Source: Pseudomonadota bacterium (GTDB taxonomy: Bacteria > Pseudomonadota > Alphaproteobacteria > Rhizobiales > Beijerinckiaceae). From it: a stretch of DNA of 64,000 bases. This document shows, piece after piece, positions 4,934 through 31,118 of the stretch. Position 1 is the stretch's first letter, and the number at the start of each line of letters is the position of its first letter. Location of the stretch: NCBI GenBank assembly GCA_023386155.1, contig JAEWKH010000066.1:94719-158718 (forward strand), given 5' to 3'. The notes beneath the pieces were generated by a model. That model was given only the letters and a program-made list of their open reading frames with translations. It searched no databases and was not told the DNA's origin. A program made the translations under genes and the position numbers.

Positions 4934-4974
4934 TATGTATTCCGATTCCTTCCAACGCTGAGTATGTCCGAGTC

Positions 4975-7444: not shown

Positions 7445-8035
7445 TTGAGATGCTCACCTATAATCTTATCGTAATGCCAATGAGGTGATCCTGGCACAAT
7501 CTGAGTGCGTCTAGTACCCGACTGCTACCTGTCGCCTAGGGCGGAGACGAGAATTCCCAGTCGCAACCTCCTTGACGTGGTCCACCTGATCATCCTTTTT
7601 GACAGCAGGAGATGATCCGCGATTTCCTCATATCTCTAGAATGGGCTGCCTCTACGACTGGCATGATCTACGTTTTCTGCACGTTGACCTTGTGAAGTTG
7701 TGAGGCGATCGATGCCGCTTCGCTTTTTCCTCGCCCATTTGATGTCCTTCTTAGGCTCGCAGGTCCTTCCTCGATAAGTATCACTTTTAGGATGCCTGTA
7801 CCCTTAAGGAAGATTCCTGCGCATGCTGATAGTTCTGTTATAACCGAGCATTGACAATTGCCAACGACAACGTCAGCATAAAGTCCTAAGGGATTGCCGA
7901 CATGTTTCTAAGGTCGGCAACAGATCGAGTTCATGGATTCATGAATAACCTCGTTAGTGCCGATCACTTACGCAAATATAGGCAAGCGTATAACCCAGAA
8001 GCTTGCCAGTATCCCCTCTGGCATCCGGACCTTGC

Positions 8036-8962
8036 ATGCTGCCAGTAGTATCAATTACCAATCTCTCAAAGACATATGAGGCGGGTTCTCAAGCCCTCAA
8101 GCGCGTCAACCTCGATATTCGCCGCGGCGAGATTTTGGCCTTACTTGGTCCCAATGGGGCGGGAAAGACCACTCTCATTAGCATCGTGTGCGGTATCGTT
8201 AAACCTTCCGAAGGAACGGTGGCGGTTGGCGGTCACGACATTGTCAAGCAGTCCCGTGCGGCACGTACGAAAATCGGCCTCGTACCCCAGGAGCTCGCCA
8301 CCGACGCATTTGAGAAAGTGTGGAATGCCGTGGCGTTCTCGCGTCGCTTGTTTGGTATGCGTGCTGACCCCGACTACTTGGCCAAGGTGCTCAAAGACCT
8401 TTCACTGTGGGACAAGCGAAACAGCCGCATCATGACGCTCTCGGGAGGTATGAAGCGACGATTGATGATTGCCAAGGCACTGGCACACGAACCGGAAATC
8501 TTATTTCTCGACGAGCCAACCGCTGGTGTGGATGTGGAGTTGCGCAAGGACATGTGGGAAATCCTGCGTACGCTGCAGGCAAAGGGTGTCACCATCATTC
8601 TCACCACACACTATATTGAAGAGGCCGAGAACCTAGCCGATCGAGTCTGCGTCATCCATCGCGGTGAGATCCTGTTGGTGGAGGAGAAAGCCGAGCTCAT
8701 GTCAAAGTTGGGCAAGAAACAGATGAAAATGCATCTGCTCAACAAGCTCGATACAATCCCTAGAGAACTCAACGGCTATCCATTGGCGTTGAGCGCAGAT
8801 GGTCATGAGCTCGTCTTCACATATGATAGCCAAAGCGAACAGGCCGGAATCACGGCGCTATTTGATGATTTGAAAGCCGTTGGGATCGCGTTTGCCGACT
8901 TGAGCACAAATAAAAGCTCGCTTGAGGAAATTTTTGTTGATTTGGTAAGGCAGCAATCGTGA
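8036..8962 (+). CDS. ABC transporter ATP-binding protein (ABC-2 exporter type)
   Basis: Walker [10 protein letters not shown], signature LSGGMKRR, Walker [16 protein letters not shown] at 8036 is preferred over the upstream TTG. Confidence 0.9.
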
Positions 8963-18220: not shown

Positions 18221-18691
18221 ATGCGCAGTCTCGATAAGGCAATTCTCGATGAAATCCTTACGAAGAGAGATACCCTCGGCGGTATTGATGCCGCATCCTG
18301 TGTGGATGATCTCTGTCGGTGGTGGAACGCGAACGCCCCGTCCGAGCGGACGGGAGCCACGCATATCGGCGTTTACATTGAGACCGATAGCGTCTGCCGG
18401 AATGTCGACCAGCAGGATCGCACGTTCAGGTTCGCGCATCAATTCGAATCCGCCGGATCTTCGGCCCGGTGCGGCGACATCGTCCTTGAATTCAGGCGTG
18501 CCGAGGAATGCGGCCCAAATGACTACGTATCCTTCGATCTCGCAGGGAATGCTATCGAGTCCAACAGACACGGTTCTGAGCGGTTCAGGCAATGGTCCGA
18601 CCAGGCTATGGAATGCCTGGTGTTGCTACGTGGCCGGTTCGGGAGACACGACAAGGAAGGTTGCAAGGCGTACATCCCGCACGTGGAATAG
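18221..18691 (+). CDS. hypothetical protein (coding strand uncertain)
   Basis: The plus-frame product from ATG 18221 (MRSLDKAILDEILTKRDTLGG...) has a balanced composition. Over 18362-18590 I counted GC3 of about 67% for this frame against about 58% for the codon-aligned antisense ORF 18131..18592. No family recognised. Confidence 0.3.
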   Translation: MRSLDKAILDEILTKRDTLGGIDAASCVDDLCRWWNANAPSERTGATHIGVYIETDSVCRNVDQQDRTFRFAHQFESAGSSARCGDIVLEFRRAEECGPNDYVSFDLAGNAIESNRHGSERFRQWSDQAMECLVLLRGRFGRHDKEGCKAYIPHVE

Positions 18692-19537
18692 CATTGGGTT
18701 TCCGGCATCCTGCTCTCCGAGAAAGAACAGATGCACACGTTCGGCACGGTTCGCATTCACGAGCTCACGTTGCACGGCCAGCATGCGCTTGAGCTCGTTC
18801 ACGAACCCTATCCGGCGTCGTGGCGACCATTCCGATATGTGGAACAGCACCCGGTAGCTCTCCGCTGGCATCATCCGCCCGGTTTCGGCATTGCGTTCCC
18901 AACGGACCGCATTGAGGTCCATCTCTGCCGCGAGAGGATCGTCTATAGGCTCCATCCGCGGTCTGCGGAAGGAGATCTCCGAGTGATACACCTTGCAGGA
19001 TAGTGGAACCGGACGGGACAGGTTTGCAAGTTTCCCAAAGCAGGTATTGTAGGTAGTTCCGTCGCATCCCGGTATGTTCAGTGGCCTCTCCCTGCCGTCC
19101 GGGAATGATACGTAGCATTCGGCGATCCTGTGGAGAGTCGTAGCAGTCTGGTCACGCTCAGGGGTATCATTCGACCCCTGTCGATTGCGCCGTTGTACTC
19201 CTTCCGGGTCAAGTTCTGGGATCCGGATCTGCGGAATACCTTGAGGCCTATGCTCGATGAGCCGAAGACGTGTCGGTTGAAGCGCGGCGTGATGCCTTTG
19301 GATTCCAGGTCTACCAGACTGGAGCCCTATCACGATCTCGCATTCGGGGCCATGGCTCCCTTCGATCCGGAAGTGGGGCGCAACCCGGTAGACACGGGCT
19401 CCGTCGGCAGCCACTGCAGTCATCTGGACACCACAATCCGGGCATTCCCAGTCTGCATTCCGCAATTCCGGAGATGCCGGCAATTCCAAGATGGAGTGAC
19501 AATCCCTTGTTTCTTGGTTCCGTGCGATGTCAGGCAC
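18626..19537 (-). CDS. hypothetical protein with N-terminal Zn-ribbon-like motif
   Basis: 303-aa ORF. A hand count over 19081-19140 gives the highest GC (about 75%) at its third codon positions. The pattern WECPDCGVQMTAV...APHFRIEGSHGPEC resembles CxxC...H...C zinc ribbons. It lies 157 nt downstream of, and co-directional with, the cNMP/TIR-like gene. Confidence 0.45.
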   Translation of the reverse strand: MPDIARNQETRDCHSILELPASPELRNADWECPDCGVQMTAVAADGARVYRVAPHFRIEGSHGPECEIVIGLQSGRPGIQRHHAALQPTRLRLIEHRPQGIPQIRIPELDPEGVQRRNRQGSNDTPERDQTATTLHRIAECYVSFPDGRERPLNIPGCDGTTYNTCFGKLANLSRPVPLSCKVYHSEISFRRPRMEPIDDPLAAEMDLNAVRWERNAETGRMMPAESYRVLFHISEWSPRRRIGFVNELKRMLAVQRELVNANRAERVHLFFLGEQDAGNPMLFHVRDVRLATFLVVSPEPAT

Positions 19538-19694: not shown

Positions 19695-20606
19695 CTAGAT
19701 GTTTCTGCCAAGCGCCATGATGTGATCCCGGAGCTCATTGCACGCTGGACTGATGAGTGCAGCAACATTTTGCCCCTTTTCATAGCGGTAACGGATCGAG
19801 GTAATCCCAGCCAAGTCACTGGGGAGTTTCACCTTGGTCCCTTGCGGTTCCATGAGGATGGCGCGCTGCCGTCCGAGCCGCCCCATGAAAAATCCCAGCT
19901 CGAAGATCACATTGTCCCGTGGGGTCGGCCAGTCCTCGTCCCGGATGTTCGTCGTATCGTCAGGGTGAGCCACTGCCACCGCGAAGTCGGACTGTTCCAA
20001 CTCCTGTTCGAGGCTCTCAAGGGTGTAGTTGGTAACCCGAAATACGCCATTGCTCCACACCATCGTCAGAAAAGGATCATGGGCGAAGGCGTTGTCGATA
20101 GCTCTGGCGATATGCAAGGACTCCACTGACGAAATCACAAAAACCCTGATCTTCTCGTTGGGAGGCCTGATTAGGGCGTTGCGCTGCTCGAGTCGGCGGG
20201 ACAGCTCCTGGGCGATGCGTCTCCAGATTTCCGGGTAGCGCGTTGCGATTTCCGAGAACTTTTCCTCGCCGACCTTGAGGACCAGGGCATCGCCATCGGC
20301 AACCAGGGTCGCGGAGCGTTTTTGGGTCGGCGAAATGGCAGCCATCTCCCCGACGTGATCGCTCGGATACCGGGTAGCAATCCTCTTGCCGTTGACCACG
20401 ACGCCGAACGTGCCGGAGATGATGAAGTACACGTCATTATCGGAGGCTGCCTGCTCGATGAGAGCCTCCCCCTGCCGCACCGCGCTTAGAGTGCCAACCT
20501 CGACCAGTGCCTCAGCCGCACCAGGTATGCCGAGAACGATCTTCTGCTTGCGCACCTCGTCAAATAGCAGACTTTTTCCGCGGTCGCCTGAAAATCTATC
20601 GATCAT
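19695..20606 (-). CDS. cyclic-nucleotide-binding domain fused to a TIR-like (CAP12 / pfam10137-type) effector domain; Pycsar PycTIR-like
   Basis: The N-terminal CAP_ED has YFIISGTFGVVVNGKRIA...HVGEMAAISPTQKRSATLVA. The C-terminal half has KIRVFVISS...NVIFELGFFMGRLGRQRAILM, typical of the predicted nucleotide-binding TIR-like family. Its ATG overlaps the upstream stop (ATGA). Confidence 0.8.
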   Translation of the reverse strand: MIDRFSGDRGKSLLFDEVRKQKIVLGIPGAAEALVEVGTLSAVRQGEALIEQAASDNDVYFIISGTFGVVVNGKRIATRYPSDHVGEMAAISPTQKRSATLVADGDALVLKVGEEKFSEIATRYPEIWRRIAQELSRRLEQRNALIRPPNEKIRVFVISSVESLHIARAIDNAFAHDPFLTMVWSNGVFRVTNYTLESLEQELEQSDFAVAVAHPDDTTNIRDEDWPTPRDNVIFELGFFMGRLGRQRAILMEPQGTKVKLPSDLAGITSIRYRYEKGQNVAALISPACNELRDHIMALGRNI

Positions 20607-21409
20607 GATACTCTTCCGTTTTTCGCGGCGTCAGCGGCGGCCCGTGTCCCGGCGGACATGCCTTCCGAACCAACGCTTAGTGGACATTTGCGCATAGAGC
20701 CGCAGCAGGGTGTTCTCGAGACCAGATGCGACTTCCAGTATTCGGCCTCGGCCTTCCGGCGTGCGCGCTCGGATACCACCAAGGTCACGATAGCAGACTT
20801 GTTGCAACAGGAGCGGCGAAGGATCAGGCGGCCGCGACGGTCGGTGCATCCCTTGGGACAACAGGCACGGCCGTTCACGAGGCGTGAGCCGTCTCTGCTG
20901 GCTCGGATGGCCCCGGCGCTGAACCAGTGCTTCTCGCCCTCGATCATGCGCTGGTAGCTCTCCTCGAGACCAAGCTCTTTCGCTGCAGCCAATGCAGATA
21001 CGTGATGGGGTCCTGCGGACCCGTGTGACAGGGCCTGAAGCGGAGGCCAGAGGCGGGTGCGGGCGGCGACTCGTTGTAGCTTGAGGAATTCGAACAGAAG
21101 TCCCCACCACACATGAGCGGAGTCGATATCGGAGACGAGTTTCTCCGCGCCTAGAGTGAGACAGAAGCTGCTATCATCGTTGACGTGACGTTCTGGACAG
21201 AAGCCCGGGAATGCGGTTCCGGGAATCGTCTCACGAATGACAAGTCCCCGAGGCTCCTCCGACAGTGTCAGGGCAACACTGAAATTCCTGGATGCCCCGG
21301 GGATTTCGATTTCCGCAACGCCTGAGACGCTGCGATCGTCCTGCCCGGTTATGATAAACCAGGCCGGCACGACCGAATGAACCAGTGCCAAACGTTGCGG
21401 ATCGGTCAT
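20603..21409 (-). CDS. E2/UBC-like protein with Cys-rich C-terminal domain (functional call tentative)
   Basis: Coding is well supported: ATGA overlaps at both ends tie it into the operon. LVIRETIPGTAFPGFCPERHVNDDSSFCLTLG resembles the E2 HPN...Cys-Leu active-site strip. The C-terminal roughly 90 aa hold nine Cys (CCPKGC, SCCNKS, TPCCGSMRKCP). Confidence 0.45.
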   Translation of the reverse strand: MTDPQRLALVHSVVPAWFIITGQDDRSVSGVAEIEIPGASRNFSVALTLSEEPRGLVIRETIPGTAFPGFCPERHVNDDSSFCLTLGAEKLVSDIDSAHVWWGLLFEFLKLQRVAARTRLWPPLQALSHGSAGPHHVSALAAAKELGLEESYQRMIEGEKHWFSAGAIRASRDGSRLVNGRACCPKGCTDRRGRLILRRSCCNKSAIVTLVVSERARRKAEAEYWKSHLVSRTPCCGSMRKCPLSVGSEGMSAGTRAAADAAKNGRVS

Positions 21410-23043
21410 CGAGCGTAGGCCTTGGCTTCGACCGCAAGCTCACCGCTCTTGACGACAAGCGGAGCCGCAAGGTGTGCGGTAACAGCATCGTAATCGAGGC
21501 CGTGGGCTTTGCCGTCGTCGACAAAGAGTCGCTTGATCCCGGGCGGGGCGCTATTCAGGGCGCGCGGGCCGAGCGCCGTCTCGTCACCCTCGCAGGTGGA
21601 CTGCAATGCCTCGGACGCACTGATTGCCTTGCTAACCGAGCACCTCACGCTTTTATCACCTCGAATGCCGAGGCGCGTGATGGGAGTGGTTCCGTACTCG
21701 ATGCCGATAGCGAGGCCGAGTTCCTTCACGTTGGGCAGTTCGTCCTGACACAGCTCGAAGCTCGATCGCATTCCGGCAGCTGCCTCGACGGCCGCGGTCA
21801 CTGTCGCCGACGCTTCCGTATTGTCCCGCGTTCCTTTGGCGAGAAGACCGTGGACGCAATCGCCGATGAAGCGTACCTTGCGGCCCGAAAAGTCTTCCTT
21901 CAGCGTCGCGGCGAGTTCGTTCCTGATCACATGCAGGTTCGCGACCATTTCCGCGACGCGCCCGGTGCGAATGCAGTCGGTCACGTAGTTGGTGAAGCCG
22001 GCAATGTCCGCAAAGATGGATGTCAGCTCCATTCGTACCGAGTGTGACGGCGACAGTTCTCGGAAATCGATCGTCTTGAGCGGCGGCGTGTGGCGATGAA
22101 ACGTGAAGGTCGGCAAGGAGCCATCGGTGACGCTCAGACGCTTCTCGACGGCTTCGGCAAAGCGTGCGACGGCTTCGTCGCTTGCCCGGCTGCTTCCGGA
22201 AAGTCCGAGGATGGGTACAGCGCCGTAAGCAAAGGAATGCATCCGCTCGTTGACAAGTCCACCTACCGCACCGAGCCCGAGGTCTCTTCGAACTTGATCG
22301 CTGGGGTAAATGCCCTCCACGTCGCCTTCTGCGAGCTTCGCGGCATAATTTGCCGGATTGCCCAGGAACAGGGGCTCCGGCTCGTTGCTCCGTCCACTGT
22401 TCACAGCGACAGCCGTTCCAGCATCCATCCCGATGCGCACCCGGGTTCTATAGAGGCCGCCGCCGACGCTCCGGCTGGTTTCCTCAATGGTCCGCTTCAA
22501 GGCGTCGGCGAACTCAAGCGCACGGACAGCCCGCTCCTTTGCCTTGTCTGGGCCTGCAGGGGACACAATGACCGCATGCATCCTAGCGCCATGGTAGTCG
22601 ACACGCTGGGCTTCGTACTCTTCAGCGACGCGATCGCACCCGGAGTAATGGAGGTGCAACATCGACAGGGCGCGCGCGTGGCTTGCCTCGGTCTCGCGTT
22701 CTTGCTCCAGCATTGTCGTCGCAAAATCGAGGAGTTGAACATAGACGTGAACGCCCTCGACAATGACAGCCTCGCTGGGCCGGACGCTGAAAATGAGGTC
22801 CTCTCTGGCTCCGCCCTTCGCGTGGAGGGATGCAATTTCCGAGCGACGGCGGACCATGTCCGCCGTCGAGAATGTCCGGACGTTAACCAGCCCCTGAGGG
22901 ACTGTGCCCTTGAACTGACGGATCCGTGCAAGGCTCTTCTGTCGTGACCAGCTCATTAGTGACCTCAAGGTAGCAAGCTGTTGGCTCTGATCCGTCGCGG
23001 GGTTCGTTTCGGCATCGGAGATTGCTCCATAGGCTTTCTTCAA
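21406..23043 (-). CDS. class III nucleotidyl cyclase with two tandem cyclase-homology domains (Pycsar PycC-like)
   Basis: The C-terminal domain has SIFADIAGFTNYV...VRFIGDCVHGLLA...AIGIEYGTTPITRLG. The N-terminal domain is a degenerate copy: VHVYVQLLDFATTM...YHGARMHAVIV...RIGMDAGTAVAVNSG. TTG start at 23043, with GGAG 9 nt upstream. Confidence 0.8.
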   Translation of the reverse strand: MKKAYGAISDAETNPATDQSQQLATLRSLMSWSRQKSLARIRQFKGTVPQGLVNVRTFSTADMVRRRSEIASLHAKGGAREDLIFSVRPSEAVIVEGVHVYVQLLDFATTMLEQERETEASHARALSMLHLHYSGCDRVAEEYEAQRVDYHGARMHAVIVSPAGPDKAKERAVRALEFADALKRTIEETSRSVGGGLYRTRVRIGMDAGTAVAVNSGRSNEPEPLFLGNPANYAAKLAEGDVEGIYPSDQVRRDLGLGAVGGLVNERMHSFAYGAVPILGLSGSSRASDEAVARFAEAVEKRLSVTDGSLPTFTFHRHTPPLKTIDFRELSPSHSVRMELTSIFADIAGFTNYVTDCIRTGRVAEMVANLHVIRNELAATLKEDFSGRKVRFIGDCVHGLLAKGTRDNTEASATVTAAVEAAAGMRSSFELCQDELPNVKELGLAIGIEYGTTPITRLGIRGDKSVRCSVSKAISASEALQSTCEGDETALGPRALNSAPPGIKRLFVDDGKAHGLDYDAVTAHLAAPLVVKSGELAVEAKAYAR

Positions 23044-23172
23044 GTTCGCCTACTCCGAACAAAATCTGGGAGCAGTTGATATCGCTGTCAAGTAACGTAG
23101 AATGCGTCTATAGCGAACGCTGGGTAGAGCGGGTATGTTATCCACAGTTGTTCCCGCAGGGGTGGAAAATCC
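23044..23172. promoter_or_regulatory. divergent promoter/operator region between the cyclase operon and the XRE-ImmA pair
   Basis: 129-bp gap between two divergently oriented start codons. I could not identify unambiguous -35/-10 boxes or a long palindrome by eye. Confidence 0.4.
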
Positions 23173-23493
23173 ATGGTTGCATTATTCGGAGAACGGATCC
23201 GGGAGTTGAGAAAGAAAAAGGGCATGACCCTTGATCAACTCGCCGTCGCGACCGATTCCAGCAAAAGCTACATCTGGGAACTGGAAAACAAGGACCCGCC
23301 ACGTCCTTCGGCGGACAAGATTGCCAGGATCGCGACCGCGCTTGATGTCACCGGGGATTACCTGATGGGTACTGCTGACGTGGACCTGCAATCGGCCGAA
23401 GATGAGGCCTTCTTCCGAAAGTATAGTCAAATGACGCCGGAGGCCCGTGCTAGGCTCCGGAAGCTCGCAAAGGCACTCGACGAGGATGATTGA
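23173..23493 (+). CDS. XRE-family HTH regulator (CapH-like position)
   Basis: FGERIRELRKKKGMTLDQLAVATDSSKSYIWELENKDPPRPSADKIARIATALDV is a canonical XRE HTH. Its stop overlaps the start of the ImmA/IrrE gene. Confidence 0.85.
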   Translation: MVALFGERIRELRKKKGMTLDQLAVATDSSKSYIWELENKDPPRPSADKIARIATALDVTGDYLMGTADVDLQSAEDEAFFRKYSQMTPEARARLRKLAKALDEDD

Positions 23494-24389
23494 TGGATGC
23501 GGGGCAGGGGCCTGAAGGTTGGGCGATCAAGCTCACCAAGATGCTGGATTTCGTCTATGGAGACGGTCCGGAGCGCTATCCCGTCAAGGTCGACCAGTTG
23601 GCTCTGGAATACTCCGCCCGCGCATACCCCGATGCTCCAATCAAAAAGGTCCTTGCCGACGATCTTGATGGGTTCGAAGGCGCCCTGGTTTCGGCGCAAA
23701 AGTCAGGAGCTTGGGGTATTCTTTACGACAAACGCCAACGTCCCGAGAGGGCCCGGTTCACGATTGCTCACGAATTCGGTCACTATCTCCTACACCGCCA
23801 CATGAGCCGTGAGGGCTTCCGGTGTGGAGAGGAGCAGGTGAGCAGACGCGAAGGCGTTGGCATTGAAAAAGAGGCCGATACGTTTGCGGCCTACCTCCTG
23901 ATGCCGTTCCACGATTTCCGGGCTCGCATCCCACCCAACAGCAAACCGACGCTTGAGGAGCTTGGAGCCTGTGCTCAGTGTTATGGTGTCTCTCTTACGG
24001 CTGCGATCCTGCGCTGGCTCGAATATACGGAGCGCCGTTCGCTGTTTGTTGTTTCGCGGGAAGGGTTCGCGCTGTGGGCTAAGGCAAGTGACTCGGCTTT
24101 CAAGTCCGGCCGCTTCATCAGGACGCGCAATACGACCTATGAACTTCCACCCTCGGCCCGTTGTGTACTTGGCCCTTTGAATACCGAGGCCCGCAGTGGC
24201 ATATCCCATCCGGCCGGCGTGTGGTTCGACGAGCCAGTAGAAGAGATTTCCATAGCGTCTGAGGAACTGGATATGGTTCTAACGCTTCTTCACCTTGGTC
24301 CGCCGCCAGAGAAGCGCTGGGAACGGAGAGAGGACGGCGAAGGCGTTGAGAGCGGTCTCACTTCCAGCCGTAGGCGTCCGTTCCGTTGA
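23493..24389 (+). CDS. ImmA/IrrE-family zinc metallopeptidase (CapP-like position)
   Basis: FTIAHEFGHYLLH (HExxH), followed by EKEADTFAAYLLMP, is typical of pfam06114 (DUF955). The ATG at 23493 shares one nucleotide with the upstream TGA. Confidence 0.85.
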   Translation: MDAGQGPEGWAIKLTKMLDFVYGDGPERYPVKVDQLALEYSARAYPDAPIKKVLADDLDGFEGALVSAQKSGAWGILYDKRQRPERARFTIAHEFGHYLLHRHMSREGFRCGEEQVSRREGVGIEKEADTFAAYLLMPFHDFRARIPPNSKPTLEELGACAQCYGVSLTAAILRWLEYTERRSLFVVSREGFALWAKASDSAFKSGRFIRTRNTTYELPPSARCVLGPLNTEARSGISHPAGVWFDEPVEEISIASEELDMVLTLLHLGPPPEKRWERREDGEGVESGLTSSRRRPFR

Positions 24390-24614: not shown

Positions 24615-25514
24615 ATGTCGGAAACGCTTTATATAATCGGGAATGGTTTCGACCTGCACCATGGTATTCGTTCCTCGTACAAGGAATTCGGCGCCTATCT
24701 GAAAGCCCGTGACCGGGAAACCTACAATGTCATGGAGCGCTATTTCGACGTTGACACGGACTTTTGGGCTGAATTTGAGGGCAGACTCGCCTCCTTCGAT
24801 AGCGATACGCTGATAGAGGACACGTCCTGTTTTCTAGTGAGCTATAGCGCAGAGGACTGGAGCGATTCGTTCCATCATGACTACCAGTATGAGATCGACG
24901 AGACTATCAAAGCGATATCGACGACGCTTCGAGCGCGGTTCGCCGAATGGATCCGGCAGCTCCGCATTCCTGATAGATCAGAGATCGCGAGCCTGCGGGT
25001 GCCTTTGGATCCGTCTGCAACCTTTCTGAACTTCAACTACACGCCATCGCTACAGCAACTCTATGGCATCCCTGATGCTCGTATCCGACATATTCACGGG
25101 GCGGCGAGTGATCCGGACGCACAGCTTGTCCTAGGACACGGTTGGGAGCCGGAGCCTCAGCCTGATCCCTATCGCTTCTCAGGCGATCCTGAGGACGCAG
25201 ATACACGGGTCGTCGAAGGTCAAAGAATTATCGACAGCTACTTCAGAGACACCTTCAAGCCGACTGCAAATATTATTCAAGCCAACGCCGCCTTCTTTGC
25301 AAGCCTGTCGCAGGTTGAAAGGATCTTTGTGATGGGGCACTCGATTTCCAGCGTTGATCATCCATATTTTAACGAGATAATACGCAACATCGATGCCACC
25401 CGCGTACGGTGGAAGATCAGCTACCGTGATGGCATCGCGGAACTTCAAGAGCGCGTGAAGATGGTCGGCATCGCTCTAAATCAAGCCGAGTTCGCGCATC
25501 TTCCGGATTTTTGA
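24615..25514 (+). CDS. AbiH-like abortive-infection family protein
   Basis: The N-terminus MSETLYIIGNGFDLHHGIRSSYKEF matches the AbiH family signature (IIGNGFDL-HGL-T-Y-F). 299 aa. Confidence 0.65.
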   Translation: MSETLYIIGNGFDLHHGIRSSYKEFGAYLKARDRETYNVMERYFDVDTDFWAEFEGRLASFDSDTLIEDTSCFLVSYSAEDWSDSFHHDYQYEIDETIKAISTTLRARFAEWIRQLRIPDRSEIASLRVPLDPSATFLNFNYTPSLQQLYGIPDARIRHIHGAASDPDAQLVLGHGWEPEPQPDPYRFSGDPEDADTRVVEGQRIIDSYFRDTFKPTANIIQANAAFFASLSQVERIFVMGHSISSVDHPYFNEIIRNIDATRVRWKISYRDGIAELQERVKMVGIALNQAEFAHLPDF

Positions 25515-25587
25515 GAACAAAGCTCGGTACACCAATGACGTGGCGCCGCACATAACTGGTGCGTAGAATTTATTAAGACCAGAGACA

Positions 25588-26631
25588 ATGGCGAAACATC
25601 CTCCGAAGATCTTTCTAGACGCCAACATTGTCATCGGTGGCGGCAAGCCGCCGGGCGGCCCTGAGCTCGCGCGGGTGATCGACTTGGTCGAGGCAGGTCT
25701 CGTAACGGTATTGACGACTGATCTCACCATTACCGAGGTTGCAAAAAAACACGTGCAGAATGACCTTGATCTGATCCGAGATATTTGCCAGCCGCACTTC
25801 CGCAAAACAGTGGAGTTCGCAACAGGAGCCAAACTTCCGGAGATCAAACGGGCAGAGTTGAAGCGAAGGCTAAGTGAAGCCTATGAGGCTTCGACCAAGT
25901 CCATGTTCAGGAATTTAAGAGCGAAGACGCTAGCGATCGATAACGTCAAGCCGTCTGTCGTGTTCGACGCCTATGCTGCTGGCGAGGGGTTTTTCTCAAG
26001 CGAGGGAAAGAAAAACCAGTTTCCGGATGCATTCACATTCGAGTGCTTGAAGCAGGAGGCCTCAGAAGAGCCGGTCATCATTGTCACACAAGATGGTGAC
26101 TTCGTGAAGCCGGCCCGAGCCGAGAAGAACATCACGCTGGTGAAGTCGCTGCCTGAGTTATTCGAAAAGCTCGGCCTGGAAATGCAGGTGCCGGAGATAG
26201 ATGCTTTTCTAGAGGATCACAAGGACGAACTCATCGAAGAAGTCGACCGAGAGCTTTCGAATTGGACATTGCAGGGCGATGTCGAAGACTCAGAGATCGA
26301 TGAAACGATAGTGACCGAAGTAGAAGTTCAAAACCTAACAGCCTTTAGGCCGACGGCAAAGGGAGACCCGATCTTGGTTATAGGGAGGCTAGCCGTGAAG
26401 GCGAACGTTTCCTACACGCATCCGAATTGGGATGAAGCCATATACGACTCTGAGGACAAGGTCCTCGTCCCCTTTGAAGACGTAAATGGTGAGACTGAGG
26501 TCGATTTGGAGATTGACGTGTCGATGTCGCTCTTGGTCGGCGATGATGGAGAGCCGGAGCAAATTGACGAACTACGTTTTCGAAACGACAATTTCGTCTA
26601 TGTCACGCTCCACCCATACGACTACGACTAG
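25588..26631 (+). CDS. PIN-like domain protein (DUF4935-type) with an acidic C-terminal domain of unknown function
   Basis: KIFLDANIVI (first acidic residue), LTTDLTITEV and VIIVTQDGDF (distal acidic residues) follow PIN-fold spacing. The C-terminal half is highly acidic and unassigned. Confidence 0.55.
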   Translation: MAKHPPKIFLDANIVIGGGKPPGGPELARVIDLVEAGLVTVLTTDLTITEVAKKHVQNDLDLIRDICQPHFRKTVEFATGAKLPEIKRAELKRRLSEAYEASTKSMFRNLRAKTLAIDNVKPSVVFDAYAAGEGFFSSEGKKNQFPDAFTFECLKQEASEEPVIIVTQDGDFVKPARAEKNITLVKSLPELFEKLGLEMQVPEIDAFLEDHKDELIEEVDRELSNWTLQGDVEDSEIDETIVTEVEVQNLTAFRPTAKGDPILVIGRLAVKANVSYTHPNWDEAIYDSEDKVLVPFEDVNGETEVDLEIDVSMSLLVGDDGEPEQIDELRFRNDNFVYVTLHPYDYD

Positions 26632-27516: not shown

Positions 27517-29412
27517 CTAAACGTTCGCGAGAGTTTTGTTTTGTCTCGAGTACTTAGGGCCGACTAAATATTCGCTGTCTTCAAGCTCTGGCGCCAACAT
27601 AGAAGTCGTGAAAATTATTTGATGAGGAAATTTCGCCCTCTTTGATTCCTCGATGACCAATCTTTGATAATTGTGGCTGCGGGCTGGTTCCATTCCCTTA
27701 TCTTCAATGTTGTCCATCAAAAGAAATTTGGGATGCCAGAACTCCGCATCGTAGCAGGCTGCTATCAAGAGGGAGAGGATCGCTGTGTTTTTTAGGATGA
27801 CGTTGCTACTCTCCGCGAAATTCATCTTCCCATCGACAAGCATCGCATCATCGCCGAAATTTACAGAGAATGTTGATGGGCGCTCAAAAACGTCCTCTCG
27901 GCTCAAATCCTTCGTTAACAAGCGCCTGCCGATAATACTTACGGATCCCATCGCTTTGTTAGTGCGCGCCATCGAGGCCTCCTCCAGACGCTTCAGGCGC
28001 GCCTCGAGCCTCTCAATTTCATCGTTTAATGTCGCGCGAGACCGTGAGAGTTCGTCAAGCTTCTCGATAGCAGCCCTCAGCTCCTCCAAGTAAGCCGCCT
28101 CGCGCTCCAATCCGCCCAGACGCTTGTACCGTTCCGCAAGGAAGCTCTCGCGTGGCGAATTGCTAATATCATATCGGCTGGAGAACTCTGTAATTGCTGA
28201 TGCGTACTCACGTCGGAGTCCGCGAATGTCGCTTTGAAGATCTTCGAACTCCGCGGCCTTCGATTTGAGAAGCTGTCGTGACTCCCGAATTTGCAACTCG
28301 TTATCTATCTTGATCTCAAAGTATTTCGACTTCGCCGCTTCTTCATCGATCACCTCATGACAAACCACGCAGTGCTTGGCATCGACATCCGAGAGAGGTT
28401 TCAGGCAAGCAGGGCAATATTGAAATTCGATACTTCCCAGCTTCTCAGATAGCTCGTCGGCAGCATTCAATGATTCGAGCTGTCTTTCCAAATGATCGAT
28501 GAACCCCTCAATCTCAGCCCGCTCATCGGTGAGATCCGTCGCGAGCTGCTCCTTTTCCTGCATGACATTGGCCAACTTTCGTACTCGGGCCTGCATCGAG
28601 CGGCGCTCAGAGATGAACTTTTGGGTCTGTTCTTCTCCTACGTAGGCATCAATATCTGAAACCTCAGCGATGATTGCATTTTTCTGCTGCGCAAGGCTAG
28701 ACATTCGTACGTCGAGGGCTGCAACGGACGTCAAGCCGTCTGCCGATGGCAGCGCCATCAATGCGGCGTTGTATAGCTTATCCGTATCAGTATATTTTGA
28801 TTTCAGCTCACGTAACCTGATTAGGCCTTCATATAGCTCATAGCCATTCACGCCAATCAATAGCTGGCCAACCGCCTCGCGAATATCCCTCGTATCAAAC
28901 CCCTCAAATCGGAACAGCTTTCCGGCCGGGGTCTGCTGATCTGCGTAAAGCAGGCGCAAAATCTGATGCATTGTGATATTAGAATTGGCGACGTTCGGCG
29001 CCTCAGGAATACCCGCCGCGCGAAACAGAACCTGGGTAAATGAGAGATCCCTCCCACCTTGAGGACGCCGTATTGGCACCATCTGCCAATGATCGATGCC
29101 TTTGTTCTGCGACTCCTCTAGGTTGCCGTAGTAAACGAATATTGGCTCCTGTTTTGTGCCGACATTACGATGAACAGTCAGAGTGGCTTGATTGGTCTCA
29201 ATCTCAAGACGGACTGCCGTGCATTTCTTAGCCGCATCCTTCCATCTGTCGAACTCTCCGCCTAAGCCGAAGAATACAAAATCTGATATGGTCGATTTTC
29301 CCGAGCTATTCTCACCGCGAATGATATTCACACCGCGATGAAAACGCTCGTCGTATGCGATCTCACGACCTCGCGTCACTTGAACCCGCTTTAGCGCAAA
29401 AAAGGTAACCAC
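27517..29412 (-). CDS. SMC/Rad50-like ABC ATPase with coiled-coil insert (ABC-3C system ATPase)
   Basis: Walker A NIIRGENSSGKST. Long heptad-rich middle region with the pattern CPACLKPL...CVVCH. Walker B-like FLLMDNIEDKG. GTG start 3 nt after the upstream stop. Confidence 0.8.
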   Translation of the reverse strand: MVTFFALKRVQVTRGREIAYDERFHRGVNIIRGENSSGKSTISDFVFFGLGGEFDRWKDAAKKCTAVRLEIETNQATLTVHRNVGTKQEPIFVYYGNLEESQNKGIDHWQMVPIRRPQGGRDLSFTQVLFRAAGIPEAPNVANSNITMHQILRLLYADQQTPAGKLFRFEGFDTRDIREAVGQLLIGVNGYELYEGLIRLRELKSKYTDTDKLYNAALMALPSADGLTSVAALDVRMSSLAQQKNAIIAEVSDIDAYVGEEQTQKFISERRSMQARVRKLANVMQEKEQLATDLTDERAEIEGFIDHLERQLESLNAADELSEKLGSIEFQYCPACLKPLSDVDAKHCVVCHEVIDEEAAKSKYFEIKIDNELQIRESRQLLKSKAAEFEDLQSDIRGLRREYASAITEFSSRYDISNSPRESFLAERYKRLGGLEREAAYLEELRAAIEKLDELSRSRATLNDEIERLEARLKRLEEASMARTNKAMGSVSIIGRRLLTKDLSREDVFERPSTFSVNFGDDAMLVDGKMNFAESSNVILKNTAILSLLIAACYDAEFWHPKFLLMDNIEDKGMEPARSHNYQRLVIEESKRAKFPHQIIFTTSMLAPELEDSEYLVGPKYSRQNKTLANV

Positions 29413-29415
29413 TTG

Positions 29416-29922
29416 TTACGTCCCCATTCTTCTCAATCCGGTGACCGAACGCAGGCCGCCCTTCCCGTTGCCAATTGTGTTGAATGCGGTTGTAAGAAAT
29501 TCCAAGACTGGCCCCTCCCCGGGCAAAATTAGTTGGGAGCCAAGCTCAGACACGATCCGTTGACCCTCAAGGCTCAGCTGATATTGATCCCTATCGACAA
29601 GAGCAATTTTGAATAACCCTTTGCCGACGAGGTTGTGCAATGCCTGAACTTGTATGCCACCCATCCTGCTGTAGAGAATTGGCGGGGATGGGTATTTCAG
29701 AAAACAATCGTTAGGCTTTGGGACTTTCAACTCATTGAATGCACGTCGAACGTCCGCGCTCATATGGGTCTGATGTAAAAGGCTTGGATTTGCGAGGTAA
29801 AAGTCGGATACAAAGAGTCGATCTCGATCCGGTGCTTCCATTGACCAGCGACTAAGTATTGCTAAGTACCGCCTAGCAGTGTCAAAAACATCAAGCTGCG
29901 AATACCAAAGACGATAGCTCAT
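29416..29922 (-). CDS. ABC-3C middle-component-like small protein
   Basis: 168 aa. ATGA overlap with the upstream hydrolase gene, and directly followed by the ABC ATPase. Position and size match the middle component of ABC three-component systems. No catalytic motif seen. Confidence 0.5.
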   Translation of the reverse strand: MSYRLWYSQLDVFDTARRYLAILSRWSMEAPDRDRLFVSDFYLANPSLLHQTHMSADVRRAFNELKVPKPNDCFLKYPSPPILYSRMGGIQVQALHNLVGKGLFKIALVDRDQYQLSLEGQRIVSELGSQLILPGEGPVLEFLTTAFNTIGNGKGGLRSVTGLRRMGT

Positions 29923-31118
29923 GGCTTATCCCAACGCACGTGGCACCGCTCTGTCAGAAAATACAGTGCGTTCATGATTGTCTTCGCGGTCGCTTTTTGG
30001 GCAGAATATTTCTGCGATAGTGGTTCGACGATATGGGTCTGGATCGCGAGGGAGACAGCTGCATCATCGGCACCATTGCAAATGAGCGGGTGGTATATCA
30101 GCGCTTGAAAGCGCTGTTCGATATCCGCAAGAAGGCTGTTGTAGTGCCCATTCGGACCAGATTTAAGGCCCGTTTGAATGAAACTACGAGCAAACCTGTT
30201 TTGCGACTCGTTCGCGAACGGATATTCGTGTTCGCGTCCAGCAGCTACCATCTTTGTCAGCAGGTCTCGTCGATCTCCAGCACTTTCGACTCCAAGATCG
30301 TCCTCATCAAAAAGCCCCGCCTCCTCGTCTGCCCCAAAAGACTGCGGAGGCAATAGGTTTTTGAGACGACGTTTGATGCTGAGATAAACTACGCTGCTTC
30401 GATCCGTAGGTTTACATATGGTGATGTGGTCAGCATCAATTCCGATTGGCATTACAGCGTTTACGCCTGGGTCGGCACTTGATGGATCGACGACCAGCGC
30501 AACTTTCGCCGTCTTGTGCATTTCGTGGTAGACAGTGACCGCGATTGCCCCCCGCTGGCAGTGCGTTCTGAAGCTTGCGTTTAATTCATCTAGCTCTGAG
30601 CTATCTTTTATTAGCTTCGTGACGTGATGTGACGCGAAGCAGCCAGAAAACATTTTCAGTAGATCGGCTAAGCTCGATCCGCTGTGAGGTGTCGCCAGAA
30701 AAAAGATCCCCGCACAGCTATCGGCTACTCTATTCCAATTCTCATCTGGCGACTCCTTCGCCGTTCTGAGAATTTGCTTCACTAGAAGCCCACCAAGGCT
30801 GTGGCATATGAAGACAAGGGGCTTAGTCCCCAACTCATAGGCGGCCATTGTTTCGAGAACGTTCTTCGCTCGGTCGTAGAGATTCATTTCTTTCTTCGCC
30901 CATTTGGCGAAGATGCTGGCTGGATACCCAAGCGTGTAAAAATTAAGGTGAGGCAGATCAACGGCCAACCATTTAGGCCAGTAGGGTCCTTCGGGCTCCG
31001 ACGTCTTATCCGAAGACCACGTGGTCAAGGGGTCCCCTGTCAAACCATGTACGAAGATCACATCCGCGCAGCCGCAATTAGCTGCAATGGTGGCAAAAAG
31101 GGTTGACGGCGTCGACAA
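29919..31118 (-). CDS. alpha/beta-hydrolase (serine esterase/lipase-like) effector with C-terminal helical domain
   Basis: VIFVHGLTGDPLTTW (oxyanion region), FICHSLGGLLV (GxSxG-type nucleophile elbow) and FLATPHSGS. The C-terminal roughly 150 aa are unassigned. Confidence 0.75.
   Translation of the reverse strand: MSTPSTLFATIAANCGCADVIFVHGLTGDPLTTWSSDKTSEPEGPYWPKWLAVDLPHLNFYTLGYPASIFAKWAKKEMNLYDRAKNVLETMAAYELGTKPLVFICHSLGGLLVKQILRTAKESPDENWNRVADSCAGIFFLATPHSGSSLADLLKMFSGCFASHHVTKLIKDSSELDELNASFRTHCQRGAIAVTVYHEMHKTAKVALVVDPSSADPGVNAVMPIGIDADHITICKPTDRSSVVYLSIKRRLKNLLPPQSFGADEEAGLFDEDDLGVESAGDRRDLLTKMVAAGREHEYPFANESQNRFARSFIQTGLKSGPNGHYNSLLADIEQRFQALIYHPLICNGADDAAVSLAIQTHIVEPLSQKYSAQKATAKTIMNALYFLTERCHVRWDKP

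What the first reader, a model, noticed from the sequence alone, without database searches (positions are those of the whole stretch)
19695..23043. Cyclase / E2-like / cNMP-sensor-TIR-like operon: a Pycsar-like system with an extra ubiquitin-conjugation-like gene
Three minus-strand genes are joined by ATGA stop/start overlaps (21406-21409 and 20603-20606), so they very probably form one translationally coupled operon. Gene 1 is a class III nucleotidyl cyclase (SIFADIAGFTNYV ... VRFIGDCVHGL). Gene 3 fuses a CAP-type cyclic-nucleotide-binding domain (HVGEMAAISPTQKRSATLVA) to a TIR-like CAP12/pfam10137-type module (NVIFELGFFMGRLGRQRAILM). Cyclase plus cNMP-sensing TIR effector is the published two-gene Pycsar layout (Tal et al. 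2021). The 268-aa middle gene is not part of that layout. It looks like an E2/UBC-type protein with a Cys-rich tail. E1-E2 (Cap2) and E2-only proteins are known regulators of CD-NTases in type II CBASS. To my knowledge an equivalent attached to a class III cyclase system has not been described. This is my best candidate for an undescribed system in the window.
Basis: partly seen in the sequence, partly recalled or inferred. Interest (0 to 1): 0.85.

Follow-up and report, generated by a model that had tools for sequence, protein, structure and literature searches.

The report
Clade-A Pycsar operon with standalone E2
This is a real anti-phage operon of the known Pycsar family (cyclic-nucleotide cyclase, E2-like regulator and NAD-destroying effector, under a DNA-damage switch); the extra E2 gene is common in this cyclase clade and already catalogued, but nobody appears to have tested what it does.

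Summary
Three minus-strand genes joined by ATGA overlaps encode a tandem-domain PycC cyclase, a UBC-like E2 with a Cys-rich tail, and a cNMP-binding TIR effector. A divergent CapH/CapP regulator pair sits upstream, in a defence island.

The novelty claim is not correct.
- The cyclase is a clade-A PycC (PDB 6YII homolog, E=2e-78).
- The E2 belongs to Pfam families PF20298 and PF20272 and matches a PADLOC E2 model (1e-86).
- 65 of 68 genomic loci with this E2 have a PycC gene directly upstream.
- The P. aeruginosa locus encoding the crystallised PaPycC has the same E2 as an intact ORF that is not listed in the PLSDB gene table.
- E2-associated Pycsar cyclases are already named "Type II Pycsar" and "Pycsar-like-4".

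One thing seems unstudied. Cyclases paired with this E1-less E2 end in [R/A/Q/K]-P-[Y/H]-x plus 1-4 extra residues (163 of 180 tails). Sister cyclases paired with Cap2-like E2-E1 fusions stop at [Y/F/H]-[G/A] (4 of 4 looked up). I infer that the E2 clips and captures the PycC tail without an E1, as in E2-only CBASS. The signal is probably cUMP, because the effector keeps S98, R138 and N143.

Verdict: a new member of a known kind. The E2 mechanism is open and testable.

The parts
23490..24389 (+). capP: M78/IrrE-type metallopeptidase, the regulator half that senses ssDNA/DNA damage
   Evidence: PADLOC capP 2.3e-67; Pfam Peptidase_M78 3.1e-18. Its start overlaps the capH stop. The same gene pair sits beside the same cassette in L069 and in Bradyrhizobium loci L014, L017, L018, L032 and L060.
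23173..23493 (+). capH: HTH (Cro/C1-type) repressor, divergent from the pycC operon
   Evidence: PADLOC capH 7.8e-32; Pfam HTH_31/HTH_3 about 1e-13. CapH+CapP are described as regulators of adjacent immune operons, Pycsar included, in PMC13373217.
23044..23172 (.). Divergent intergenic control region (promoters and presumed CapH operator)
   Evidence: Plus-strand sigma-70-like site TTGATA-16-TAGAAT at 23076-23103, 10 of 12 matches. By eye, a minus-strand TTGACA at 23091-23086 is followed 17 nt later by a weak CAGATT. No inverted repeat of 8 nt or more was found, so the operator is not identified.
21406..23043 (-). pycC: clade-A Pycsar cyclase with two tandem class III cyclase domains (probable true start ATG at 22956)
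   Evidence: PADLOC PycC PDLC00762 3.1e-180. PDB 6YII (PaPycC) E=2e-78 over aa 68-527. Clade A is defined by 'two consecutive nucleotide cyclase domains' (PMC11224242). AlphaFold pLDDT 87.7.
22294..22782 (-). PycC N-terminal cyclase-like domain (aa ~88-250): lacks the second metal-binding Asp but keeps the GNPANYAAKLAE motif (N232, K236)
   Evidence: Short PADLOC PycC models match aa 91-241. Invariant columns N232 and K236 in A4. Motif positions. Its role as the C2-like half of a pseudo-heterodimer is inferred from general class III cyclase knowledge.
21544..22041 (-). PycC C-terminal catalytic cyclase domain (aa ~335-500) with metal-binding D346 (FADIAGFT) and D395 (FIGDC)
   Evidence: Pfam Guanylate_cyc best stretch aa 340-460. 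D346 and D395 are invariant in 62 homologs.
21409..21465 (-). PycC C-terminal tail APLVVKSGELAVEAKAYAR, carrying the family motif [R/A/Q/K]-[P/A]-[Y/H]-x (here K541-A542-Y543-A544) plus a one-residue extension (R545)
   Evidence: 163 of 180 unique clade-A tails have [PAGS][HYF] followed by 2 or more residues within the last 14 aa, against 20% of background windows. All 65 E2-linked genomic loci have it or a near variant. pLDDT falls to 76 and then 60, and the last 5 residues are coil.
20603..21409 (-). Standalone E2 (E2-ntca plus E2-Crich), translationally coupled to pycC
   Evidence: Pfam PF20298 3.4e-20 and PF20272 3.6e-20; PADLOC E2 1.1e-86. AlphaFold pLDDT 93.5. 479 clusters at 50% identity, and the best 150 are all standalone proteins.
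21035..21409 (-). UBC-like domain (aa 1-125); putative catalytic Cys83 (codon 21161-21163) within the invariant loop C71-P-E-R74-H75-V-N-x-D-x-x-F82-C83-L
   Evidence: Invariant columns in 59 homologs. hhalign places C83 on Cys85 of UbcH5b. The top Foldseek PDB hits are UBC E2s, including the Serratia CdnG-E2 chain 8hsb_B, but E is only 0.06-0.1. The same loop, PH-V-E-x-D-G-x-L-C-L, occurs in the Cap2-like E2-E1 proteins of sister loci.
20672..21034 (-). Cys-rich domain (aa 126-246): H129, H135, C184-x3-C188, C201(C202), C235-C236, C242. Probably metal-binding.
   Evidence: Pfam E2-Crich over aa 129-244. Invariant or near-invariant Cys and His columns. Metal binding is an inference.
19695..20606 (-). 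pycTIR: cNMP-binding domain fused to a TIR NADase effector
   Evidence: PDB 8JSJ PycTIR 1.1e-55 over the full length. PADLOC PycTIR 8e-126.
20238..20480 (-). CNBD core (aa 43-123); the uracil-specifying residues S98, R138 and N143 are retained (R138 and N143 lie just beyond it, at 20178-20195)
   Evidence: Gapless alignment 1-147 with the cUMP-bound PsPycTIR CNBD 8JSK. The specificity residues are defined in PMC11224242.
19788..20147 (-). TIR (CAP12/PCTIR) domain with the FELG glutamate (E236)
   Evidence: Pfam PF10137 2.8e-33 over aa 154-273. Motif position. NCBIfam Cap12 NAD(+) hydrolase models match below their cut-off, 6e-32.

Best explanation
This is a CapH/CapP-controlled clade-A Pycsar abortive-infection cassette (capP-capH / pycC-E2-pycTIR) inside a defence island.

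Shown by homology: PycC is a single-chain tandem class III cyclase. PycTIR is a cyclic-nucleotide-gated TIR NADase. CapH is an HTH repressor paired with the CapP metallopeptidase.

Inferred working model:
1. DNA damage or phage-derived ssDNA activates CapP, which cleaves CapH and de-represses the operon.
2. On infection, PycC makes a 3',5'-cyclic mononucleotide, most likely cUMP.
3. cUMP binds the CNBD of PycTIR. PycTIR oligomerises and depletes NAD+, which stops phage replication.
4. The E2 is a dedicated regulator of its own cyclase. Its UBC-like domain (Cys83 in the CPERHVN..FCL loop) recognises the exposed PycC tail ...K-A-Y543-A544-R545. It removes the short extension and captures the new C-terminus as a thioester or isopeptide adduct, on itself, on another PycC or on a target. 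This primes or tunes cyclase activity without any E1 or ATP, as shown for the E2-only CBASS enzyme SmE2.
5. The Cys-rich domain occupies the C-terminal position where the sister systems' Cap2-like proteins carry their E1 (ThiF) domain, and probably binds metal. Its role is not established.

Confidence by step: that this is a clade-A Pycsar cassette with its usual E2 and CapH/CapP, about 0.95; cUMP as the signal, about 0.7; the E2 acting covalently on the PycC tail, about 0.5.
For: Identity of the parts.

The operon is a conserved unit. ATGA overlaps link the genes. 65 of 68 genomic loci with this E2 have PycC directly upstream, usually with a 4-nt overlap or a gap under 20 nt, and 48 of them have the cNMP-TIR. 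L069 keeps capP-capH-pycC-E2-pycTIR at 90-96% identity with different flanks.

The cyclase-side survey gives the same picture. P0156, P0071 and P0173 pair with E2-ntca/E2-Crich.

Tail type and E2 type covary. Extended [P/A/G/S]-[H/Y]-x(2-11) tails occur in 163 of 180 unique tails and in every E2-ntca locus. Tails ending [Y/F/H]-[G/A]-COOH pair with Prok-E2_B+ThiF, with or without Prok-JAB, in 4 of 4 look-ups.

The tail is exposed: pLDDT drops and the last residues are coil.

The E2 active-site loop is invariant and aligns with the UBC catalytic Cys. The fold hits are UBC enzymes, including the CBASS E2 8hsb_B.

Mechanistic precedent: SmE2 uses C101 and H87 to remove the residue after the terminal Gly of the CD-NTase and forms interconvertible thioester and isopeptide links (bioRxiv 10.1101/2022.05.25.493364 and PMC12948482).

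cUMP: clade A-D PycC make cUMP (PMC11224242). RefSeq names the P. aeruginosa ortholog 'uridylate cyclase'. The effector keeps S98, R138 and N143.

CapH/CapP function: PMC13373217.
Against: There is no direct evidence for any covalent PycC-E2 link. The tail has no Gly at the putative junction, which would be unusual for UBC-type chemistry. Foldseek and hhalign support for the UBC fold is statistically weak (E 0.06-0.1 and 0.012), so the assignment rests mainly on the Pfam profile. The conserved His75 also occurs in the E1-containing sister E2s, so it does not mark a protease-type, E1-independent mechanism. A two-gene PsPycC+PsPycTIR construct protected E. coli from T2 when overexpressed (PMC11224242), so if that system is of the same type the E2 is not strictly required. 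bioRxiv 10.64898/2026.08.12.744502 predicts an ATP preference for E2-linked cyclases from AF3 ligand scores, which conflicts with cUMP. No CapH operator palindrome was found.
Confidence: 0.58

Rival explanations
1. The E2 is a brake rather than a primer. It binds the PycC tail, covalently or not, and holds the cyclase inactive to prevent autoimmunity. Infection releases the brake, for example through a phage protein, redox change or metal loss at the Cys-rich domain.
For: The same co-occurrence and tail-covariation data fit this model equally well. In E2-CBASS the isopeptide and thioester states are interconvertible and differ in activity. A two-gene PycC+PycTIR construct without an E2 was active against T2. 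A redox- or metal-sensitive Cys cluster is conserved.
Against: In the characterised CBASS cases conjugation enhances signalling. Nothing here shows inhibition.
Confidence: 0.2
2. The E2 transfers PycC, through its tail, onto other host or phage proteins in the way Cap2 does. This would localise or activate the cyclase, with the Cys-rich domain acting as an E3-like module that selects the target.
For: Sister loci of the same cyclase clade use Cap2-like E2-E1 fusions, with or without JAB, which in CBASS conjugate the cyclase to targets. The two E2 classes share the active-site loop.
Against: There is no E1 to activate a C-terminus and no JAB to reverse the conjugation. The only characterised E1-less precedent links cyclase to E2 and cyclase to cyclase.
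Confidence: 0.12
3. The E2-like protein is catalytically irrelevant. It serves as a scaffold or sensor that binds a phage component or nucleic acid through its Cys-rich, probably Zn-binding, domain and activates PycC allosterically.
For: The Cys-rich domain is as conserved as the UBC loop. UBC-fold similarity is weak. What triggers PycC is unknown.
Against: Cys83 and the CPERH..FC loop are invariant in 59 homologs. The PycC tail motif covaries with E2 class, which points to an enzyme-substrate relationship.
Confidence: 0.08
4. The operon is a housekeeping cyclic-nucleotide signalling module and not a defence system.
For: Class III cyclases and CNBD proteins are common in physiological signalling.
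Against: All parts match defence-specific models at very low E-values. The effector is a PycTIR NADase homolog. The flanks carry AbiH, a PIN_12 protein, a Lamassu-like trio and a PD-Lambda-4_B-like gene. The cassette moves as a unit between different contexts and onto 22 plasmids.
Confidence: 0.02

Closest known systems
Clade-A Pycsar (PaPycC / PaPycTIR of Pseudomonas aeruginosa; PDB 6YII)
   Same: Both have a tandem-domain PycC (E=2e-78 to 6YII), a CNBD-TIR effector and an adjacent E2-ntca/E2-Crich gene. The P. aeruginosa plasmid p382 locus has an intact 257-aa E2 ORF whose start overlaps the pycC stop. The [Q]-P-H tail is also present there (QVQPHSRQKVDGSR).
   Different: The gene order is pycTIR-pycC-E2 in Pseudomonas and pycC-E2-pycTIR here. 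Identity is about 35%. The window cassette has CapH/CapP. The literature I could read treats Pa Pycsar as a two-gene system.
Type II Pycsar / 'Pycsar-like-4' (cyclase plus Cap2-like E2-E1 fusion, with or without a JAB peptidase)
   Same: The cyclase clade is the same (50-59% identity to the window PycC). The effectors are the same kind. The E2 active-site loop is homologous. An aromatic or His residue sits next to the presumed conjugation site in the tail.
   Different: The window E2 has no ThiF/E1 domain and no JAB partner. It belongs to a different Pfam family (PF20298, not PF14461) and carries a Cys-rich domain instead. The cyclase tail extends beyond the [Y/H]-x position instead of ending in Gly or Ala.
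E2-only (type II-short) CBASS, e.g. Serratia marcescens CdnG-E2 (PDB 8HSB)
   Same: Both have a standalone UBC-like E2 encoded next to a nucleotide cyclase whose C-terminus carries a short removable extension. 8hsb_B is among the Foldseek hits. This is the best mechanistic analogue.
   Different: The cyclase there is a CD-NTase (Pol-beta fold), not a class III cyclase. SmE2 is 159 aa with no Cys-rich domain. The junction residue there is Gly. There is no detectable sequence similarity (phmmer against the PDB found nothing).
CapH/CapP-regulated immune operons
   Same: A divergent HTH repressor plus M78 peptidase pair sits directly upstream (capH 8e-32, capP 2e-67). Pycsar is listed among the operons they regulate.
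   Different: No operator palindrome was identified in this intergenic region.

Membership tests
Pycsar | Class III nucleotide cyclase homologous to PycC | tested here: met
   PADLOC PycC 3.1e-180. PDB 6YII PaPycC 2e-78. Metal-binding D346 and D395 are invariant.
Pycsar | Effector with a cyclic-nucleotide-binding domain fused to a TIR (or TM) killing module, encoded in the same operon | tested here: met
   PF00027 plus PF10137. Full-length match to PycTIR 8JSJ, 1e-55. ATGA-coupled operon.
Pycsar | The cyclase makes a cyclic pyrimidine mononucleotide (cUMP or cCMP) | not testable with these tools
   Indirect only. Clade A-D PycC make cUMP (PMC11224242). The effector keeps the uracil-specifying S98, R138 and N143. 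A preprint predicts ATP preference for E2-linked cyclases.
Pycsar | Confers phage resistance | not testable with these tools
   Supported only by defence-island context.
Clade A PycC | Two consecutive cyclase domains in one chain | tested here: met
   Two Guanylate_cyc stretches. Short PycC models hit aa 91-241 and aa 336-457. The AlphaFold model shows two alpha/beta cyclase-like halves. Definition from PMC11224242.
Type II Pycsar (Cap2/Cap3-like) | E2 fused to an E1 (ThiF) adenylation domain | tested here: not met
   The middle protein is 268 aa with only PF20298 and PF20272. Sister loci show what the fusion looks like: 588-611 aa with PF14461 plus PF00899.
Type II Pycsar (Cap2/Cap3-like) | JAB/JAMM peptidase partner | tested here: not met
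   There is no JAB hit among the ORFs from 17 to 26.6 kb.
Type II Pycsar (Cap2/Cap3-like) | The cyclase ends in a free Gly or Ala suitable for adenylation | tested here: not met
   The window PycC ends ...KAYAR. The type II sisters end ...GRHA...GTYG or ...NTFG.
E2-only CBASS | The signalling enzyme is a CD-NTase | tested here: not met
   The cyclase is class III (PF00211). No CD-NTase was found among the annotated genes of the cassette and its immediate neighbours, and every neighbouring signalling enzyme identified in the 68 related loci is a class III cyclase.
E2-only CBASS | Standalone UBC-fold E2 with a catalytic Cys, no E1, no JAB | tested here: met
UBC/E2 superfamily | UBC fold with a catalytic Cys in the loop after an HPN-like motif | tested here: inconclusive
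   The Pfam 'Prokaryotic E2 domain' hit (3.4e-20) and the invariant ERH-V-N...FC83L loop aligned to UbcH5b Cys85 favour it. The top Foldseek hits are UBC enzymes, but only at E 0.06-0.1 and TM 0.38-0.55.
CapH/CapP regulator module | HTH repressor plus M78 metallopeptidase pair, divergent from the regulated operon | tested here: met
   The capH and capP genes overlap and are divergent from pycC.
CapH/CapP regulator module | CapH binds an operator in the shared promoter, and ssDNA-activated CapP cleaves CapH | not testable with these tools
   No palindrome of 8 nt or more in 22940-23190. The biochemistry cannot be tested here.

The most novel reading that the evidence does not exclude
The E2-ntca/E2-Crich proteins are E1-independent transpeptidase-type E2s. 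They recognise a non-glycine tail, [R/A/Q/K]-P-[Y/H]-x, on their cognate class III cyclase, clip off the 1-4 residue extension and capture the new C-terminus. That would be a second, independently evolved (or E1-losing) route to 'ubiquitin-like' self-conjugation of an immune cyclase, and the first with a non-Gly junction. The Cys-rich domain would then have functionally replaced the E1, or act as a metal/redox-gated switch that couples infection to cyclase activation.
Probability: 0.35. Interest if true: 0.7.

Novelty: new member of a known kind. Interest (0 to 1): 0.4.

Why it matters
As a locus it is ordinary: one more clade-A Pycsar cassette in a defence island. It matters in two ways.

First, the survey shows that the 'two-gene' Pycsar picture is incomplete for a whole cyclase clade. 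The E2 is nearly always present next to clade-A PycC, including next to the crystallised PaPycC, where it is not listed in the PLSDB gene table for one P. aeruginosa plasmid.

Second, the strict pairing of tail type with E2 type gives a simple, falsifiable handle on how an E2 can act without an E1. Free [Y/F/H]-[G/A] ends go with E2-E1 fusions. Extended P-[Y/H]-x tails go with the E1-less Cys-rich E2. This bears on the origin of ubiquitin-like conjugation and on how abortive-infection cyclases are kept off until needed.

Tried and rejected
1. Sequence search of the E2 against the PDB found nothing relevant (one chance cupin hit, E=0.15).
2. The search for related loci with the 59-sequence alignment failed because no stretch was conserved enough. 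It worked with a 12-sequence alignment.
3. I tried to read Tal et al. 2021 (PMC9070634 and by DOI), Ledvina et al. 2023 (PMC10292035), Slavik & Kranzusch 2023 (PMC12337107) and Burroughs et al. 2015 (I tried PMC4678834, an id recalled from memory). None is held. I therefore cannot say whether they mention this E2-only arrangement.
4. Full-text searches for E2-ntca, E2-Crich, PF20298, PF20272, 'E2-Pycsar', 'Pycsar E2' and similar terms returned no papers.
5. I attempted AlphaFold docking of the PycC tail onto the E2 with a linker fusion.
6. A search for a CapH operator palindrome found none. Terminator and promoter scans were at background level.
7. I considered the downstream 303-aa ORF (18626-19537, PD-Lambda-4_B-like) as a fourth operon gene. 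I rejected this because it is absent from all 68 related loci and from L069.
8. I considered His75 as a marker of an E1-independent protease-type E2, like H87 of SmE2. I rejected this because the same His is present in the E2-E1 fusions of sister loci.
9. My first strict tail regex, [RKQ][PA][HYF], caught only 49 of 120 tails. I replaced it with an anchored analysis.
10. Many long ORFs in the 65% GC half of the window had no Pfam hit and are probably wrong-frame artefacts. I did not pursue them.

Full report
OBSERVATION. Both junctions read ATGA on the coding strand. Profile searches leave no doubt about the domains. Gene 1 hits Guanylate_cyc (two stretches) and PADLOC PycC (3e-180). Gene 2 hits Pfam E2-ntca 'Prokaryotic E2 domain' (3.4e-20), E2-Crich 'Cysteine-rich domain, C-terminal to E2 domain' (3.6e-20) and PADLOC E2 (1e-86, full length). 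Gene 3 hits cNMP_binding, CAP12-PCTIR_TIR (2.8e-33) and PADLOC PycTIR (about 1e-126 to 1e-137). The start of gene 1 is uncertain. The TTG at 23043 and the ATG at 22956 both have a Shine-Dalgarno-like sequence upstream. Homologs are mostly 515-528 aa and align from residue 29-30, and residues 1-29 are low-confidence in the model, so I favour 22956.

Divergently upstream lie an HTH protein (23173-23493) and an M78 peptidase (23490-24389) that match PADLOC capH (8e-32) and capP (2e-67). [quoted passage not shown] CapP is activated by ssDNA and cleaves the repressor CapH (PMC13373217). A metagenomic contig (L069) carries capP-capH / pycC-E2-pycTIR at 90-96% protein identity but with different flanking genes, which delimits the mobile cassette as about 19695-24389. 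The surroundings are a defence island. They include a PD-Lambda-4_B-like gene (18626-19537), AbiH (24615-25514), a PIN_12 protein (25588-26631) and a Lamassu/ABC-3C-like trio (27517-31118).

THE CYCLASE AND THE EFFECTOR ARE CANONICAL. PycC matches the crystal structure 6YII (PaPycC) at E=2e-78 over aa 68-527. [quoted passage not shown] In a 62-sequence alignment the C-terminal domain keeps both metal-binding aspartates (D346 in FADIAGFT, D395 in FIGDC). The N-terminal domain lacks the second Asp but keeps an invariant GNPANYAAKL motif (N232, K236). By analogy with heterodimeric class III cyclases, this suggests one composite active site (inference). The effector aligns over its full length with the solved PycTIR 8JSJ (1e-55). 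It aligns without gaps to the cUMP-bound PsPycTIR CNBD 8JSK. It retains S98, R138 and N143, the residues shown to specify uracil, and E114 of the filament interface (PMC11224242). I therefore expect cUMP. A 2026 preprint predicts ATP preference for E2-linked cyclases from AF3 ligand confidence, so this point is unresolved.

THE MIDDLE GENE IS AN E2, AND IT IS NOT RARE. There are 59 close homologs, all with the same two Pfam domains. A profile search of 1.84 billion representatives finds 479 clusters at 50% identity, and the best 150 are uniformly standalone proteins of about 150-315 aa. Invariant residues include C71, R74, H75, F82 and C83 in the loop CPERH(V/I)NxDGxFCL, W101-W102, H129, G130, and a Cys cluster (C184, C188, C201, C235, C236, C242). 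The AlphaFold model is confident (pLDDT 93.5). Foldseek against the PDB returns mostly UBC E2 enzymes at the top (CDC34, UBE2Z, UbcH10, a Naegleria E2 and the Serratia CdnG-E2 chain 8hsb_B), but only at E 0.06-0.1 and TM 0.38-0.55. The only hhalign match to UbcH5b is the active-site loop, which places C83 on catalytic Cys85. The UBC assignment is thus well supported by the Pfam profile and consistent with structure, but the fold is divergent.

GENOMIC LINKAGE. Scanning one genome per species gave 68 loci with relatives of this E2, mostly Alpha-, Beta- and Gammaproteobacteria. In 65 of them a PycC homolog ends within a few bases of the E2 start. The three exceptions are a 1.5-kb contig, a fragment and a remnant beside an integrase-like gene. 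In 48 of the 65 a cNMP-TIR lies just after the E2 or just before pycC. Most of the others examined carry a cNMP_binding+Guanylate_cyc fusion or another CNBD protein. From the cyclase side, three PycC homologs with long contigs again have E2-ntca/E2-Crich next door. Homologs occur on 22 plasmids and in no phage record. RefSeq calls them 'E2 domain-containing protein' or 'E2 domain-associated cysteine-rich protein'.

THE TYPE EXAMPLE ALREADY HAS IT. The 6YII sequence is 100% identical to the PycC of loci L033-L035 (Pseudomonas), which read pycTIR-pycC-E2. On P. aeruginosa plasmid p382, RefSeq annotates 'Pycsar phage resistance system uridylate cyclase PycC' and 'effector protein PycTIR'. Immediately after pycC there is an intact 257-aa ORF with a TTG start overlapping the pycC stop. 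It carries FCPERHINYDGTFCL and a CCGSCDSCP tail, and it is absent from the PLSDB gene table. So the extra gene is part of the archetypal clade-A Pycsar locus.

PRIOR DESCRIPTION. [quoted passage not shown] I found exactly such loci among close relatives of the window cyclase (L071, L072, L075, L076). I could not find any text on the E1-less, Cys-rich E2 specifically. I could not read Tal 2021, Ledvina 2023 or Burroughs 2015.

A NEW REGULARITY. The C-termini of clade-A PycC fall into two classes. Of 180 unique tails, 163 have [P/A/G/S]-[H/Y/F] within the last 14 residues followed by 2-11 more residues. The consensus is [R/A/Q/K]-P-[Y/H]-[S/A/L/T/C]-x(1-4). The same loose pattern occurs in 20% of internal 14-residue windows. 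Thirteen tails end exactly at G-x(1-3)-[Y/F/H]-[G/A], and four fit neither class. Every E2-ntca locus examined has the extended type or a near variant. All four terminal-Gly/Ala cyclases looked up sit next to a Prok-E2_B+ThiF (Cap2-like) fusion, two of them with a Prok-JAB. Some tails carry the motif twice (L006, L009, L010, L012, L047). In the window the tail is ...E-A-K-A-Y543-A544-R545. The model shows falling confidence (76 and then 60) and coil for the last five residues. The two E2 classes share the active-site loop (ERH-V-N-x-D-G-x-F-C-L against WPH-V-E-x-D-G-x-L-C-L), so they are homologous.

MECHANISM (inferred). An E1 needs a free C-terminal Gly or Ala to adenylate, and the type II tails provide exactly that. 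Without an E1, the energy for a thioester can come from a peptide bond if the E2 acts as a transpeptidase. That requires a leaving group after the scissile position, which is what the extended tails provide. This is the mechanism shown for the E2-only CBASS enzyme. SmE2 (C101 and H87) removes the single residue after the terminal Gly of the CD-NTase and forms interconvertible thioester and isopeptide links that regulate cyclase activity. I propose that the window E2 does the same to PycC at or next to Y543-A544. My confidence in this step is about 0.5. The direction of regulation (priming or braking), the acceptor (E2, PycC or another protein) and the role of the Cys-rich domain are open. The rest of the pathway rests on strong homology to characterised proteins: CapP/CapH de-repression, cUMP synthesis, and CNBD-driven PycTIR oligomerisation with NAD+ depletion.

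CAVEATS. There is no Gly at the junction. Structural similarity to UBC is weak. His75 is not specific to the E1-less class. A two-gene PsPycC+PsPycTIR construct defended E. coli when overexpressed. No CapH operator was identified.

VERDICT. The locus is a new member of a known kind: a clade-A Pycsar with its usual E2, under CapH/CapP control. The residual interest lies in the uncharacterised E1-less E2 and in the tail/E2 covariation, which makes its mechanism directly testable.

Noticed in passing
window 18626-19537 (-): A 303-aa ORF 158 nt downstream of pycTIR matches PADLOC PD-Lambda-4_B (1.9e-24) but no Pfam or NCBIfam model. No PD-Lambda-4_A partner was found nearby. It never accompanies the PycC-E2 module in related loci, so it is probably a separate, possibly orphan, defence gene.
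   Followed up: partly
window 27517-31118 (-): A Lamassu/ABC-3C-like three-gene system: a DUF676 serine esterase with CTD9 (29919-31118), Middle Component 5 (29416-29922) and an LmuB-like SMC ATPase (27517-29412).
   Followed up: partly
window 24615-26631 (+): An AbiH homolog (6e-73) followed by a PIN_12 protein (2.5e-27), directly beside capP. These are further defence-island cargo.
   Followed up: no
window 8003-8962 (+): A 319-aa ORF hits several defence ATPase models (mad3 1.7e-33, mad8, AriA, AbiLi). I did not examine it further.
   Followed up: no
window 1-64000: There is a composition step. Bases 1-32 kb have about 51-53% GC, the Pycsar cassette has 59%, and 32-64 kb has about 65%. The high-GC half holds ordinary envelope and transport genes (L,D-transpeptidase, DUF882 peptidase, ABC transporter). 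Many long ORFs there have no Pfam hit and look like wrong-frame artefacts.
   Followed up: partly
L014, L016, L051, L073, L075, L077 (genes next to pycC or the E2): In a subset of related loci the only cNMP-binding partner is a fusion of about 370 aa, cNMP_binding plus Guanylate_cyc, instead of a TIR. That would be a cNMP-activated second cyclase with no obvious killing effector in the operon, suggesting a relay or amplification step.
   Followed up: partly
L069 7413-11971: The closest relative contig carries a second cNMP_binding-TIR gene (302 aa) directly beside a 1216-aa AAA_11/AAA_12 helicase. This may be a different cNMP-TIR-containing system.
   Followed up: no
L078 (P. aeruginosa plasmid p382, NZ_CP115292.1) 4438-5211: An intact 257-aa E2-ntca/E2-Crich ORF with a TTG start overlapping the stop of the annotated pycC is not listed in the PLSDB gene table. 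Either it is unannotated or it lacks a protein accession there.
   Followed up: yes
L047 8001-9975; L036 7046-8345; L037 8001-8549: Some related loci carry disrupted E2 genes: split by an insertion of about 1.3 kb in L047, truncated together with pycC in L036, and a remnant beside an integrase-like DUF6538 gene in L037. This indicates occasional decay of the module.
   Followed up: partly
window 20178-20315 (effector residues S98, R138, N143): The effector retains all the uracil-specifying residues of the cUMP-specific PsPycTIR. A 2026 preprint, however, predicts ATP preference for E2-linked 'Pycsar-like-4' cyclases from AF3 ligand scores. The two lines of inference disagree.
   Followed up: partly
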